Source: Giardia intestinalis (lineage: Eukaryota). Taken from it: DNA of 64,000 nt. Positions 58,899 through 61,988 of the stretch are shown here, one piece after another. The notes beneath the pieces were generated by a model that was given only the letters and a program-made list of their open reading frames with translations, made no database searches and was not told where the DNA came from. Location: NCBI GenBank assembly GCA_000002435.2, contig CM018792.1; one strand, written 5' to 3'. How positions within the stretch are numbered: position 1 is the stretch's first letter; every line of letters starts with the position of its first letter. The position numbers and the translations under genes were made by a program.

Positions 58899-61800
58899 AT
58901 GTTGGTAGGATTTCTCCTAGTTTGTGCAACAGTGCTGGCCAAGTACAGCGGGAAGACCAGCAGCGAGGCGGTTGCCAACACAAACTGCGCACAAGAGCTG
59001 CAGAATGCGGGCTGCAAGACGTGCGGCCCCAACGACCAGACGTGCCTGGACTGCAAGACTCCTGGCGAGAACGTGCAGCTCGATAAAAGAAGCTGCGGCC
59101 CCACCTGCCCGCAGAACTCCTCCCCCAACCAAAACGTCTGCGAGTGCAACCCGGGATTCAACCTGAACGATAGAAAAGACGCGTGCGAGGCGGTTGCCAA
59201 CACAAACTGCGCACAAGAGCTGCAGAATGCGGGCTGCAAGACGTGCGGCCCCAACGACCAGACGTGCCTGGACTGCAAGACTCCTGGCGAGAACGTGCAG
59301 CTCGATAAAAGAAGCTGCGGCCCCACCTGCCCGCAGAACTCCTCCCCCAACCAAAACGTCTGCGAGTGCAACCCGGGATTCAACCTGAACGATAGAAAAG
59401 ACGCGTGCGAGGCGGTTGCCAACACAAACTGCGCACAAGAGCTGCAGAATGCGGGCTGCAAGACGTGCGGCCCCAACGACCAGACGTGCCTGGACTGCAA
59501 GACTCCTGGCGAGAACGTGCAGCTCGATAAAAGAAGCTGCGGCCCCACCTGCCCGCAGAACTCCTCCCCCAACCAAAACGTCTGCGAGTGCAACCCGGGA
59601 TTCAACCTGAACGATAGAAAAGACGCGTGCGAGGCGGTTGCCAACACAAACTGCGCACAAGAGCTGCAGAATGCGGGCTGCAAGACGTGCGGCCCCAACG
59701 ACCAGACGTGCCTGGACTGCAAGACTCCTGGCGAGAACGTGCAGCTCGATAAAAGAAGCTGCGGCCCCACCTGCCCGCAGAACTCCTCCCCCAACCAAAA
59801 CGTCTGCGAGTGCAACCCGGGATTCAACCTGAACGATAGAAAAGACGCGTGCGAGGCGGTTGCCAACACAAACTGCGCACAAGAGCTGCAGAATGCGGGC
59901 TGCAAGACGTGCGGCCCCAACGACCAGACGTGCCTGGACTGCAAGACTCCTGGCGAGAACGTGCAGCTCGATAAAAGAAGCTGCGGCCCCACCTGCCCGC
60001 AGAACTCCTCCCCCAACCAAAACGTCTGCGAGTGCAACCCGGGATTCAACCTGAACGATAGAAAAGACGCGTGCGAGGCGGTTGCCAACACAAACTGCGC
60101 ACAAGAGCTGCAGAATGCGGGCTGCAAGACGTGCGGCCCCAACGACCAGACGTGCCTGGACTGCAAGACTCCTGGCGAGAACGTGCAGCTCGATAAAAGA
60201 AGCTGCGGCCCCACCTGCCCGCAGAACTCCTCCCCCAACCAAAACGTCTGCGAGTGCAACCCGGGATTCAACCTGAACGATAGAAAAGACGCGTGCGAGG
60301 CGGTTGCCAACACAAACTGCGCACAAGAGCTGCAGAATGCGGGCTGCAAGACGTGCGGCCCCAACGACCAGACGTGCCTGGACTGCAAGACTCCTGGCGA
60401 GAACGTGCAGCTCGATAAAAGAAGCTGCGGCCCCACCTGCCCGCAGAACTCCTCCCCCAACCAAAACGTCTGCGAGTGCAACCCGGGATTCAACCTGAAC
60501 GATAGAAAAGACGCGTGCGAGGCGGTTGCCAACACAAACTGCGCACAAGAGCTGCAGAATGCGGGCTGCAAGACGTGCGGCCCCAACGACCAGACGTGCC
60601 TGGACTGCAAGACTCCTGGCGAGAACGTGCAGCTCGATAAAAGAAGCTGCGGCCCCACCTGCCCGCAGAACTCCTCCCCCAACCAAAACGTCTGCGAGTG
60701 CAACCCGGGATTCAACCTGAACGATAGAAAAGACGCGTGCGAGGCGGTTGCCAACACAAACTGCGCACAAGAGCTGCAGAATGCGGGCTGCAAGACGTGC
60801 GGCCCCAACGACCAGACGTGCCTGGACTGCAAGACTCCTGGCGAGAACGTGCAGCTCGATAAAAGAAGCTGCGGCCCCACCTGCCCGCAGAACTCCTCCC
60901 CCAACCAAAACGTCTGCGAGTGCAACCCGGGATTCAACCTGAACGATAGAAAAGACGCGTGCGAGGCGGTTGCCAACACAAACTGCGCACAAGAGCTGCA
61001 GAATGCGGGCTGCAAGACGTGCGGCCCCAACGACCAGACGTGCCTGGACTGCAAGACTCCTGGCGAGAACGTGCAGCTCGATAAAAGAAGCTGCGGCCCC
61101 ACCTGCCCGCAGAACTCCTCCCCCAACCAAAACGTCTGCGAGTGCAACCCGGGATTCAACCTGAACGATAGAAAAGACGCGTGCGAGGCGGTTGCCAACA
61201 CAAACTGCGCACAAGAGCTGCAGAATGCGGGCTGCAAGACGTGCGGCCCCAACGACCAGACGTGCCTGGACTGCAAGACTCCTGGCGAGAACGTGCAGCT
61301 CGATAAAAGAAGCTGCGGCCCCACCTGCCCGCAGAACTCCTCCCCCAACCAAAACGTCTGCGAGTGCAACCCGGGATTCAACCTGAACGATAGAAAAGAC
61401 GCGTGCGAGGCGGTTGCCAACACAAACTGCGCACAAGAGCTGCAGAATGCGGGCTGCAAGACGTGCGGCCCCAACGACCAGACGTGCCTGGACTGCAAGA
61501 CTCCTGGCGAGAACGTGCAGCTCGATAAAAGAAGCTGCGGCCCCACCTGCCCGCAGAACTCCTCCCCCAACCAAAACGTCTGCGAGTGCAACCCGGGATT
61601 CAACCTGAACGATAGAAAAGACGCGTGCGAGGCGGTTGCCAACACAAACTGCGCACAAGAGCTGCAGAATGCGGGCTGCAAGACGTGCGGCCCCAACGAC
61701 CAGACGTGCCTGGACTGCAAGACTCCTGGCGAGAACGTGCAGCTCGATAAAAGAAGCTGCGGCCCCACCTGCCCGCAGAACTCCTCCCCCAACCAAAACG

Positions 61801-61988
61801 TCTGCGAGTGCAACCCGGGATTCAACCTGAACGATAGAAAAGACGCGTGCGAGGCGGTTGCCAACACAAACAAGAGTAGTGGCCTTTCTACCGGCGCCAT
61901 TGCAGGCATTGCTGTGGCTGCTGTTATTGTCGTCGGGGGCCTCGTCGGCTTCCTCTGCTGGTGGTTCCTCTGCCGGGGCAAAGCGTAG
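58899..61988 (+). CDS. Variant-specific surface protein (VSP). It has a signal peptide, thirteen identical 74-aa Cys-rich repeats, a transmembrane segment and the CRGKA tail.
   Basis: The start is taken at MLVGFLLVCATVLA, which is signal-like; the track ORF extends 77 codons upstream without a signal. Each repeat is EAVANTNCAQELQNAGCKTCGPNDQTCLDCKTPGENVQLDKRSCGPTCPQNSSPNQNVCECNPGFNLNDRKDAC, with 10 Cys and 2 CXXC. The C-terminus is GAIAGIAVAAVIVVGGLVGFLCWWFLCRGKA*. The extended VSP 3' motif follows the stop. Confidence 0.9.
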   Translation: MLVGFLLVCATVLAKYSGKTSSEAVANTNCAQELQNAGCKTCGPNDQTCLDCKTPGENVQLDKRSCGPTCPQNSSPNQNVCECNPGFNLNDRKDACEAVANTNCAQELQNAGCKTCGPNDQTCLDCKTPGENVQLDKRSCGPTCPQNSSPNQNVCECNPGFNLNDRKDACEAVANTNCAQELQNAGCKTCGPNDQTCLDCKTPGENVQLDKRSCGPTCPQNSSPNQNVCECNPGFNLNDRKDACEAVANTNCAQELQNAGCKTCGPNDQTCLDCKTPGENVQLDKRSCGPTCPQNSSPNQNVCECNPGFNLNDRKDACEAVANTNCAQELQNAGCKTCGPNDQTCLDCKTPGENVQLDKRSCGPTCPQNSSPNQNVCECNPGFNLNDRKDACEAVANTNCAQELQNAGCKTCGPNDQTCLDCKTPGENVQLDKRSCGPTCPQNSSPNQNVCECNPGFNLNDRKDACEAVANTNCAQELQNAGCKTCGPNDQTCLDCKTPGENVQLDKRSCGPTCPQNSSPNQNVCECNPGFNLNDRKDACEAVANTNCAQELQNAGCKTCGPNDQTCLDCKTPGENVQLDKRSCGPTCPQNSSPNQNVCECNPGFNLNDRKDACEAVANTNCAQELQNAGCKTCGPNDQTCLDCKTPGENVQLDKRSCGPTCPQNSSPNQNVCECNPGFNLNDRKDACEAVANTNCAQELQNAGCKTCGPNDQTCLDCKTPGENVQLDKRSCGPTCPQNSSPNQNVCECNPGFNLNDRKDACEAVANTNCAQELQNAGCKTCGPNDQTCLDCKTPGENVQLDKRSCGPTCPQNSSPNQNVCECNPGFNLNDRKDACEAVANTNCAQELQNAGCKTCGPNDQTCLDCKTPGENVQLDKRSCGPTCPQNSSPNQNVCECNPGFNLNDRKDACEAVANTNCAQELQNAGCKTCGPNDQTCLDCKTPGENVQLDKRSCGPTCPQNSSPNQNVCECNPGFNLNDRKDACEAVANTNKSSGLSTGAIAGIAVAAVIVVGGLVGFLCWWFLCRGKA
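58965..61871 (+). repeat. Tandem array of 13.1 copies of a 222-bp unit, all copies identical, inside the VSP coding sequence.
   Basis: GAGGCGGTTGCCAACACAAACTGCGCACAAGAGCTGCAG recurs at 58965, 59187, ... 61851 with an exact period of 222. The overlapping off-frame ORFs in the track are identical in every copy. Confidence 0.95.

What the first reader, a model, noticed from the sequence alone, without database searches (positions are those of the whole stretch)
58899..61988. VSP gene whose ectodomain is 13 perfectly identical 222-bp (74-aa, 10-Cys) tandem repeats
All 13 copies are base-for-base identical across 2.9 kb. This points either to a very recent expansion and concerted evolution, or to an assembly-level collapse or expansion of a repeat whose true copy number differs. 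Repeat-containing VSPs are a known but small subclass, and the repeat number sets the ectodomain length and epitope valency, so this locus is a strong candidate for length polymorphism between isolates or clones. The repeat unit carries two CXXC motifs plus CGP and CECNPGF motifs. The array begins immediately after the signal peptide and ends just before the TM-CRGKA tail, so the protein is essentially nothing but repeats.
Basis: seen in the sequence. Interest (0 to 1): 0.7.

Follow-up and report, generated by a model that had tools for sequence, protein, structure and literature searches.

The report
Known Giardia repeat-type surface antigen gene
This is an already annotated and catalogued surface-antigen (VSP) gene of the Giardia intestinalis WB reference genome whose outer part is 13 identical copies of a 74-residue cysteine-rich module, so it is a real but ordinary member of a well-described class.

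Summary
Window 58963-61871 is a 222-bp tandem array of 13.1 copies with 100% identity. It lies inside an intact ORF (58899-61988, 1029 aa) made of a signal peptide, 13 x 74 aa (10 Cys and 2 CXXC each), a transmembrane helix and a CRGKA tail.

The window comes from Giardia intestinalis WB C6, PacBio reference assembly, chromosome 4. The protein is an exact match to VSP GL50803_0050165 (XP_037901961.1). Its 222-bp consensus unit is printed verbatim in a published table of repeat-containing VSPs, where 36 of 136 WB VSPs have repeats. Neighbouring chromosome-4 genes carry longer arrays of the same module type (26 and about 17 copies).

What this analysis adds:
- The unit is homologous to the whole ectodomain of one-module "mini-VSPs" found in assemblages A1, A2 and B.
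- At least 13 WB VSPs have amplified versions of this 10-Cys module.
- The assemblage A2 isolate DH has a different VSP interior at the syntenic slot, with breakpoints at the conserved leader and tail.
- An unplaced 3.5-kb contig of the same assembly is an indel-ridden copy of this array.

Copy number per allele and expression remain untested. Verdict: real, correctly interpreted, already known, low interest.

The parts
58622..58896 (+). About 280 bp of upstream sequence shared with paralogous VSP genes that carry the same MLVGFLLV-type leader. It is non-coding, although it is stop-free in frame, which is why a mechanical ORF call extends back to the GTG at 58668.
   Evidence: BLASTN gives 78-81% identity to the upstream regions of two non-syntenic DH (A2) VSP loci, L001 and L002, whose other flanks do not match. 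The three-way alignment has mean column identity 91%. The literature notes groups of VSPs that share upstream sequences.
58897..58903 (+). VSP initiator/Kozak-like element TAATGTT, containing the start codon at 58899-58901.
   Evidence: Read directly from the sequence. The published Table S1 lists 'taatgtt' for GL50803_0050165.
58899..58940 (+). Signal peptide MLVGFLLVCATVLA (aa 1-14).
   Evidence: Translation. The signal-peptide prediction is listed in published Table S1. The same leader occurs in paralogues P0002, P0004 and GL50803_0050181/0050225.
58941..58964 (+). Short linker KYSGKTSS (aa 15-22). Paralogues have K..GKTAC here, so the Cys that precedes the first module in some relatives is Ser in this gene.
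   Evidence: Alignments A1 and A2.
58963..61871 (+). Tandem array of 13 identical 222-bp units plus a 23-nt partial unit. In codon phase, units occupy aa 23-984 (nt 58965-61850) and the partial unit EAVANTN occupies aa 985-991.
   Evidence: TRF output. Exact self-comparison: 13 units, one distinct sequence. The unit is identical to consensus row 19 (GL50803_50165) of published Table S2.
61872..61895 (+). Membrane-proximal stalk KSSGLSTG (aa 992-999), part of the conserved VSP C-terminal region.
   Evidence: Conserved in 13 of the 15 sequences of alignment A2.
61896..61970 (+). Conserved VSP transmembrane segment AIAGIAVAAVIVVGGLVGFLCWWFL (aa 1000-1024).
   Evidence: Translation. Transmembrane prediction in published Table S1. 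Alignment A2.
61971..61988 (+). Cytoplasmic tail CRGKA followed by the TAG stop codon.
   Evidence: Sequence and translation.
62000..62019 (+). Extended VSP polyadenylation motif CACTTAGGTAGTAAACGTAT, with AGTAAAC at 62009-62015.
   Evidence: Sequence. The identical string is listed for GL50803_0050165 in published Table S6.
58814..61981 (-). Antisense ORFs of 1055 aa (58814-61981) and 959 aa (58917-61796). These are not genes. They arise because two minus-strand frames of the 222-bp unit contain no stop codon.
   Evidence: ORF list. Count of stop codons per frame of the unit.

Best explanation
The locus is the variant-specific surface protein gene GL50803_0050165 on chromosome 4 of Giardia intestinalis WB C6.

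Shown here: it encodes a type I membrane protein. After signal-peptide removal, the extracellular part is 13 identical copies of a 74-residue, 10-cysteine module. The protein is anchored by the family-wide transmembrane helix and has the CRGKA cytoplasmic tail. The module is the same unit that forms the entire ectodomain of one-module mini-VSPs. It models as a small disulfide-rich beta-hairpin domain with weak furin-repeat/EGF-like resemblance.

Inferred from established VSP biology: the gene is one of about 136 VSPs, of which a trophozoite displays one at a time. When this one is switched on, the coat presents a 13-fold repeated epitope, and such repeats were immunodominant in the classical repeat VSP CRP170/VspA6.

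Inferred from the sequence: the array grew by amplification of a single module. Unequal exchange, slippage or gene conversion keeps it identical, and the same processes change copy number. This happened after, or independently of, the A1/A2 split, because the A2 isolate DH carries a different interior between the same conserved 5' leader and 3' tail at the syntenic position. Patches of the unit that match two other repeat VSPs suggest short-tract conversion between genes.
For: **Identity**
- The protein is an exact match to KAE8303776.1/XP_037901961.1, annotated 'VSP', on a 2,761,001-bp contig of WB C6. The neighbouring cysteine protease and the coatomer alpha subunit also match WB exactly.
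- Published tables give the gene id GL50803_0050165, chromosome 4, 3090 nt/1029 aa, 133 Cys, 26 CXXC, the signal peptide, transmembrane segment, CRGKA and taatgtt. They also give the 222-bp consensus (identity checked) and the polyadenylation motif.
- Pfam VSP PF03302 scores 39.4 bits against a cut-off of 31.4.

**Module**
- Profile and sequence searches return 127-162-aa VSPs from WB, DH and GS plus ENA contigs. Each consists of leader, one module and TM-CRGKA.
- All 10 Cys are invariant across 15 sequences.
- Thirteen WB repeat-VSP consensus units of 207-228 bp each encode 10 Cys and 2 CXXC.

**Evolution**
- The closest unit is that of GL50803_0050169: 198/222 nt and 60/74 aa identical.
- Of the 24 sites that differ from 0050169, 13 match GL50803_0050289 and they cluster.
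- The DH syntenic locus L003 matches at 96.7% up to window 58923 and at 97.5% from window 61881 onward. Its interior is different and has no 222-bp array.

**Class behaviour**
- Repeat copy numbers in VSPs are known to vary between alleles for vspA6 and vspC5, and the repeats of VspA6 are immunodominant (Adam et al. 2010).
Against: - No expression evidence for this gene was found. No paper text mentions its identifiers, and the RNA-seq supplements that were held are truncated.
- Copy number per allele was not verified, because raw reads are not available here.
- The perfect identity of all 13 units could be partly sharpened by consensus polishing of a repeat.
- dN/dS between this unit and the 0050169 unit is 1.24 and not significant (P = 0.40), so diversifying selection is not demonstrated.
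- The mosaic signal rests on 24 variable sites (label-shuffle P about 0.03).
- The DH assembly is an older short-read assembly and could itself be imperfect at this locus.
Confidence: 0.9

Rival explanations
1. Assembly or polishing effect. The true locus has a different or heterogeneous copy number among the four genome copies, or slightly diverged units. The reference shows one consensus allele with identity sharpened by polishing.
For: - The 2010 Sanger-based catalogue warned that repeat numbers were approximate.
- Its vsp13 (725 aa, 93 Cys, 18 CXXC, TR222, chromosome 4) equals the architecture of GL50803_0050163 with 9 units (59 + 9 x 74 aa; 3 + 90 Cys). That gene has 26 units in the PacBio assembly. 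Collapse of such arrays has therefore happened before.
- The current assembly retains an unplaced 3,464-bp scaffold, NW_024037086.1, carrying the same unit. It was built by Canu from reads that failed to map. If it is all repeat it would hold about 15.6 units, more than 13.
- Structural variants in WB long reads are enriched at VSPs.
Against: - The array is only 2.9 kb, whereas reads had N50 12.7 kb at 200x coverage. Most reads therefore span it with unique flanks.
- The 798 nt of unplaced-scaffold CDS text compared (2 x 399 nt) differ from the chromosomal unit by 6 single-base indels, 5 of them in homopolymers, and 1 substitution. That is the PacBio error profile, not a diverged allele.
- Other arrays in the same genome (26 and about 17 copies) show the same within-gene uniformity at the protein level.
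Confidence: 0.2
2. A silent or decaying gene. The array is a recent amplification in a VSP that is intact on paper but never selected for expression, making it effectively a pseudo-VSP.
For: No expression data were found for this gene id. The WB genome holds 208 pseudo-VSPs alongside 133 VSPs. The Cys that precedes the first module in some paralogues is Ser here.
Against: The ORF is uninterrupted over 3,090 nt. It keeps the Inr, signal peptide, transmembrane segment, CRGKA and extended polyadenylation motif, which are the criteria used to separate VSPs from pseudo-VSPs. Two independent curations classify it as a VSP. Mini-VSPs P0005 and P0006 also lack the leading Cys.
Confidence: 0.1
3. Not a VSP but another Giardia cysteine-rich membrane protein (HCMP/CRMP or tenascin-like) that merely resembles VSPs.
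For: The best Pfam score is to cEGF, with TNFR-like hits, and the VSP model scores only 39 bits. The typical GGCY motif is absent. The unplaced copies were auto-annotated 'High cysteine protein'.
Against: The tail is exactly CRGKA, with the VSP transmembrane segment, the Inr and the extended polyadenylation motif. The literature treats these as exclusive to VSPs. A genuine VSP-like HCMP elsewhere in this window (24435-26852) ends ...CRGKRRYYR instead. The 'High cysteine protein' label on the unplaced copies is explained by frameshifts that remove the leader and tail.
Confidence: 0.02

Closest known systems
GL50803_0050165 (XP_037901961.1 / KAE8303776.1 / UniProt A0A644F577), VSP, chromosome 4 of G. 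intestinalis WB C6 assembly AACB03
   Same: It is this gene. The 1029-aa protein is identical. The 222-bp consensus unit is identical to the published table entry. The listed Inr, signal peptide, transmembrane segment, tail and polyadenylation motif are the same.
   Different: Nothing differs. What this analysis adds is the relationship to mini-VSPs, the comparison with the A2 syntenic locus, and the reading of the unplaced scaffold.
GL50803_0050169 (1602 aa) and GL50803_0050163 (1983 aa, 26 units), neighbouring chromosome-4 repeat VSPs
   Same: Same kind of gene: a TAATGTT Inr and arrays of 222-bp, 74-aa, 10-Cys units. 0050169 also has a near-identical leader (MLIGFLLVCATVLA), whereas 0050163 starts MLAVILLACTTVLA. 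The 0050169 unit is 89% (nt) and 81% (aa) identical, shares a 61-nt exact block and has the same polyadenylation motif.
   Different: Copy numbers differ: 26, and about 17 inferred from the CXC count. 0050169 also has a non-repeat portion. The 0050163 unit is only about 40% identical at the aa level.
Classical repeat VSPs: VspA6/CRP170 (195-bp x ~23) and VspC5 (105-bp x >20)
   Same: A short 5' leader, then a long array of near-identical Cys-rich repeats. In VspC5 the array runs up to the conserved 3' end, so the exposed part is almost all repeats. Allelic copy-number variation and repeat immunodominance are documented for these genes.
   Different: The unit length and sequence differ. VspA6 has 1.3 kb of non-repeat sequence after its array. 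No antibody, allele or expression data exist for the present gene.
One-module mini-VSPs (for example the 142-aa WB VSP P0002, probably vsp113/GL50803_26894, and the 127-aa P0006)
   Same: Same leader, one copy of the same 10-Cys module (49-65% identity), and the same stalk, transmembrane segment and CRGKA. The present protein is in effect a 13-fold concatemer of such an ectodomain.
   Different: They have a single module. Some carry an extra Cys before the module, which is Ser in this gene.
Furin-like repeats and EGF-like modules (R-spondin Fu1-Fu2, insulin receptor/EGFR Cys-rich region, factor IX EGF2)
   Different: All structural scores are below the usual significance levels. No solved VSP structure exists for comparison. 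The resemblance is one of fold type, not of demonstrated homology or function.

Membership tests
Giardia variant-specific surface protein (VSP) | N-terminal signal peptide | tested here: met
   MLVGFLLVCATVLA at aa 1-14. The signal-peptide prediction is recorded in published Table S1. I did not re-run a predictor.
Giardia variant-specific surface protein (VSP) | Cysteine-rich ectodomain (about 11-13% Cys) with multiple CXXC motifs | tested here: met
   133 Cys in 1029 aa (12.9%) and 26 CXXC.
Giardia variant-specific surface protein (VSP) | Single conserved C-terminal transmembrane segment followed by the 5-residue cytoplasmic tail CRGKA | tested here: met
   The protein ends ...AIAGIAVAAVIVVGGLVGFLCWWFLCRGKA*. 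This region aligns with 13 other VSPs.
Giardia variant-specific surface protein (VSP) | PyAATGTT initiator/Kozak-like element at the start codon | tested here: met
   TAATGTT at 58897-58903.
Giardia variant-specific surface protein (VSP) | Extended polyadenylation signal just after the stop codon | tested here: met
   CACTTAGGTAGTAAACGTAT at 62000-62019. The identical entry appears in published Table S6.
Giardia variant-specific surface protein (VSP) | Match to Pfam PF03302 (VSP) above the gathering score. The literature notes that this is not a universal feature of VSPs. | tested here: met
   E 4.5e-10, 39.4 bits against a cut-off of 31.4, over residues 600-1029.
Giardia variant-specific surface protein (VSP) | Surface display and mutually exclusive, switching expression | not testable with these tools
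   No expression or antibody data were found for this gene.
Repeat-containing VSP subclass (TR-VSPs) | In-frame tandem repeats of 105-516 bp within the ectodomain, near-identical within a gene | tested here: met
   222 bp x 13.1 copies at 100% identity. The gene is listed among the 36 repeat VSPs.
Repeat-containing VSP subclass (TR-VSPs) | Copy-number polymorphism between alleles or isolates | not testable with these tools
   There is only indirect evidence: collapsed arrays in the older assembly and an unplaced repeat contig. Short-read assemblies of other isolates break at the VSP 3' end.
High cysteine membrane proteins / CRMPs (non-VSP) | Cys-rich type I protein without the CRGKA tail, Inr and VSP polyadenylation motif | tested here: not met
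   This gene has all three VSP-specific elements. By contrast, the HCMP-like gene at 24435-26852 ends CRGKRRYYR.
Furin-like repeat / EGF-like domain fold | Significant structural or profile similarity to solved furin-like or EGF modules | tested here: inconclusive

The most novel reading that the evidence does not exclude
The array would be a young, A1-lineage-specific invention. A single mini-VSP module was installed between the family-wide conserved leader and TM/CRGKA ends of a positionally conserved VSP slot, which in the A2 isolate DH holds a different interior. It was then amplified to 13 or more copies, with patches imported from other repeat VSPs by short-tract conversion. The copy number would still be polymorphic among the four genome copies of WB, with the unplaced 3.46-kb repeat contig hinting at an allele of 15 or more units. 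If so, this locus would be a tractable case of how Giardia makes new surface antigens by cassette replacement plus module amplification.
Probability: 0.3. Interest if true: 0.35.

Novelty: already known. Interest (0 to 1): 0.12.

Why it matters
Repeat VSPs set the length and epitope valency of the Giardia surface coat, and their arrays are hard to assemble. It is therefore useful to know that this locus is a real, intact, curated gene, and that its copy number should be trusted only as far as spanning long reads allow.

The incremental points are of modest value to people studying how the VSP repertoire evolves. They are the one-module mini-VSP as the building block of at least 13 repeat VSPs, the different interior at the A2 syntenic slot with breakpoints at the conserved ends, and the reading of the unplaced scaffold as an error-laden duplicate. 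None of them changes current understanding.

Tried and rejected
**Look-ups that failed**
- Exact-protein contig look-ups found nothing for the VSP, the neighbouring protease, a 509-aa neighbour, P0001, P0002 and P0050. The unplaced scaffold's DNA could therefore not be fetched. Only 2 x 399 nt of its CDS text, taken from a supplement, could be compared.
- Two metagenome scans, one with a 38-nt unit-junction pattern and one with a 21-nt conserved block, found no matches.
- Paper searches for the accession numbers and the gene id found nothing relevant.

**Comparisons that were not informative**
- The P15 (assemblage E) protease locus L004 is not the orthologous slot, because its neighbours differ.
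- Short-read assemblies of other isolates carrying the downstream 106-aa gene either are A2-like or break just after the VSP stop codon. They say nothing about copy number.

**Tests that were not significant**
- dN/dS of this unit against the 0050169 unit is 1.24 (P = 0.40). More distant units give 0.39-0.72. Positive selection is not claimed.

**Ideas rejected or left uncertain**
- The long antisense ORFs are artefacts of a stop-free unit.
- An HCMP identity is rejected because of the tail, Inr and polyadenylation motif.
- This gene cannot be firmly assigned to vsp15 of the 2010 catalogue. The Cys and CXXC counts fit 3 units, but the length is off by 11 aa and the Inr entry disagrees.
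Full report
**1. Observation**

Tandem Repeats Finder reports a single array in the region: 58963-61871, period 222, 13.1 copies, 100% matches, no indels. A direct period-222 comparison shows 13 complete units that collapse to one distinct sequence, plus 23 nt of a fourteenth.

The array lies in an ORF from the ATG at 58899 to the TAG at 61986-61988, 1029 aa. 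Each 74-aa unit has 10 Cys, two CXXC (CKTC, CLDC), two CGP and CECNPGF.

The protein layout is as follows:
- signal peptide MLVGFLLVCATVLA;
- 8 linker residues;
- 13 units;
- 7 residues of another unit;
- KSSGLSTG;
- a 25-residue hydrophobic segment;
- CRGKA.

Two long antisense ORFs (1055 and 959 aa) are artefacts, because two minus-strand frames of the unit contain no stop codon.

**2. Source and identity**

An exact-sequence look-up places the window in Giardia intestinalis WB clone C6. The 1029-aa protein is KAE8303776.1/XP_037901961.1/A0A644F577, annotated 'VSP', on a 2,761,001-bp contig. The adjacent cysteine protease (56092-58005) and the coatomer alpha subunit (38813-42646) are also exact WB proteins on the same contig.

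The supplementary tables of Rodriguez-Walker et al. (bioRxiv 10.1101/2022.03.07.483299) list the gene as GL50803_0050165 on NC_051859.1, chromosome 4. They give 3090 nt/1029 aa, Inr 'taatgtt', 133 Cys, 26 CXXC, the signal peptide, the transmembrane segment and CRGKA. Table S2 of that work prints the 222-bp TRF consensus for GL50803_50165, and I verified that it is identical to window 58963-59184. Table S6 lists its 3' motif CACTTAGGTAGTAAACGTAT, which sits at 62000-62019. The finding is therefore an already annotated and catalogued gene.

**3. Membership in the VSP family**

The literature defines VSPs by the following features:
- a signal peptide;
- a CXXC-rich ectodomain;
- a conserved transmembrane segment;
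- the CRGKA tail;
- the PyAATGTT element at the start codon;
- an extended polyadenylation signal.

All are present. Pfam PF03302 is matched above its cut-off. The GGCY motif common in larger VSPs is absent, but it is not a defining feature. Surface display and switching cannot be tested here.

A genuinely non-VSP relative in the same window (24435-26852, 805 aa, Pfam VSP hit) ends in ...FLCWWFICRGKRRYYR. This illustrates the distinction.

**4. How common this is**

Adam et al. 2010 (PMC2996952) found 30 repeat-containing VSPs in WB, with units of 105-516 bp and 2 to more than 20 copies. They warned that copy numbers were approximate because of assembly condensation, and noted allelic copy-number variation for vspA6 and vspC5. 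The 2022 catalogue counts 36 of 136.

On chromosome 4 alone, GL50803_0050163 has 26 units (1983 aa) and GL50803_0050169 has about 17 units (1602 aa; the count is my inference from its 17 CXC motifs). GL50803_0050181 has 225-bp units (793 aa) and GL50803_0050225 has 120-bp units. The present array is thus neither the longest nor unusual. 'Small subclass' understates the class.

**5. What the unit is**

Searches with the N-terminal 200 aa, and with a profile of one unit, return short VSPs of 127-162 aa from WB (A1), DH (A2) and GS (B), plus ENA contigs. Each consists of leader, one copy of this module, stalk, transmembrane segment and CRGKA. In a 15-sequence alignment all 10 Cys are invariant. 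The repeat unit is therefore a complete mini-VSP ectodomain.

Each encodes exactly 10 Cys and 2 CXXC, so at least 13 WB VSPs are amplifications of this module type.

An AlphaFold2 model of one module with this alignment has mean pLDDT 78.8, about 90 in the core, and consists of short beta hairpins. Its nearest solved structures are:
- insulin-receptor and EGFR Cys-rich regions;
- EGF modules.

All of these are below the usual significance levels. The C-terminal half gives a weak profile hit to factor IX EGF (E 0.005). No solved VSP structure was found. I read the module as a furin-repeat/EGF-like disulfide domain, with low certainty.

**6. Relationship to other genes**

The closest unit is that of GL50803_0050169: 198/222 nt and 60/74 aa identical, with 14 non-synonymous and 2 synonymous codon differences. 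Nei-Gojobori dN/dS is 1.24 and not significant (P = 0.40), so I do not claim positive selection.

Of the 24 sites that differ from 0050169, 13 match the unit of GL50803_0050289. They cluster at unit positions 28-33 and 142-149, and a label shuffle gives P about 0.03. Exact shared blocks are 61 nt with 0050169 and 36 nt with 0050289. This pattern is what short-tract conversion between repeat VSPs would leave, and it agrees with published evidence for recombination among VSPs. It rests on few sites.

**7. Comparison across isolates**

The DH (assemblage A2) contig AHGT01000035 is syntenic. It aligns at 96.7% from window 50000 to 58923, which is 25 nt past the ATG, and at 97.5% from window 61881, which is 10 nt past the array, to 64000.

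Between these points DH has no 222-bp array. Instead it has the following:
- a 466-aa VSP (from its leader Met, inside the 533-aa ORF call) with two diverged 69-aa modules, a non-repeat body and its own CRGKA end;
- a 99-aa VSP remnant whose 3' end is the orthologue of the WB tail.

The slot is conserved while the interior is not, and the breakpoints coincide with the family-wide conserved ends. This fits the published statement that A1 and A2 VSP repertoires have largely evolved independently (PMC4570179).

About 280 bp upstream of the ATG is shared at 78-81% (BLAST) with non-syntenic DH paralogues that have the same leader. The literature describes such upstream-sequence groups in general terms.

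**8. Assembly question**

The reference was built from PacBio RS II reads at 200x with N50 12.7 kb, using HGAP and Quiver. Reads that failed to map were assembled separately with Canu. A 2.9-kb array is spanned by most such reads, so 13 is probably right for the dominant allele. Two facts keep the question open.

First, the older assembly collapsed such arrays. Vsp13 of the 2010 table (725 aa, 93 Cys, 18 CXXC, TR222, chromosome 4) equals GL50803_0050163 with 9 rather than 26 units, by my arithmetic.

Second, the same assembly keeps an unplaced 3,464-bp scaffold, NW_024037086.1. Its two 'High cysteine protein' genes (P0001, P0050) are frameshifted translations of this very repeat. Across the 2 x 399 nt of its CDS text they differ from the chromosomal unit by 6 single-base indels, 5 of them in homopolymers, and 1 substitution. 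That is the signature of a low-coverage long-read consensus, so the scaffold is most likely a junk duplicate. If it is all repeat, however, it would hold about 15.6 units, so a longer allele cannot be excluded.

Short-read assemblies of other isolates break at the VSP 3' end and give no information.

**9. Mechanism**

Shown: the gene structure, the module, the family membership and the comparative pattern.

Inferred from established VSP biology: one VSP of the repertoire coats the trophozoite at a time. A 13-fold identical module would present a highly multivalent epitope, comparable to the immunodominant repeats of VspA6.

Inferred from the sequence: the array arose by amplification of one module. 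It is kept uniform by unequal exchange, slippage or conversion, and the same processes would generate length variants. Perfect identity over 2.9 kb implies that the last homogenisation was recent.

**10. Verdict**

The feature is already known, so interest is low. What remains untested is copy number per allele and whether the gene is ever expressed.

Noticed in passing
not in the window; unplaced scaffold NW_024037086.1 of the same assembly (proteins P0001, P0050): A 3,464-bp leftover contig carries the same 222-bp unit with single-base, mostly homopolymer, indels. Its two annotated 'High cysteine protein' genes (GL50803_0050443 and GL50803_0050444) are therefore frameshift artefacts of this VSP repeat and probably should not be counted as genes.
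   Followed up: partly
L003 7412-9285 (DH, AHGT01000035), syntenic to window 58899-61988: The assemblage A2 isolate DH has a different VSP interior at the same slot, followed by a 99-aa VSP 3' remnant orthologous to the WB tail. Homology breaks 25 nt after the ATG and 10 nt after the WB array.
   Followed up: yes
window 58622-58896: About 280 bp upstream of the VSP start is conserved (78-81% by BLAST) with non-syntenic paralogous VSP loci in DH whose ectodomains differ. The region is stop-free in frame, so mechanical ORF callers extend the gene to 1106 aa from a GTG at 58668. A DH paralogue (P0004) was deposited with such an extension.
   Followed up: partly
window 24435-26852 (+): An 805-aa cysteine-rich membrane protein (96 Cys, 24 CXXC, Pfam VSP hit) has a VSP-like transmembrane segment, but its tail reads CRGKRRYYR instead of CRGKA. 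It looks like a VSP-derived HCMP/CRMP.
   Followed up: no
window 56092-58005 (-): The papain-family cysteine protease next to the VSP belongs to a multi-copy family. At least four WB paralogues fall in one 90%-identity cluster, located on the 2.76-, 1.97- and 4.02-Mb contigs, and DH has four as well.
   Followed up: no
window 58963-61871 versus the whole window: The repeat unit is 60% G+C against 48.9% for the 64-kb window. [quoted passage not shown]
   Followed up: no
L009 (Logan SRR26945869), L008, L007: Short-read assemblies of other Giardia samples end their roughly 19-kb contigs within a few bases to about 100 bases of this VSP's stop codon. The 100%-identical (WB-like) contig starts at window 61996. 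This shows that the conserved VSP 3' end, and not only the array, breaks k-mer assemblies.
   Followed up: partly
Adam et al. 2010 Table S1, vsp13, compared with GL50803_0050163 (outside the window): By arithmetic, vsp13 (725 aa, 93 Cys, 18 CXXC) is GL50803_0050163 with 9 units instead of the 26 in the PacBio assembly. This is a concrete case of array collapse in the first WB genome.
   Followed up: partly
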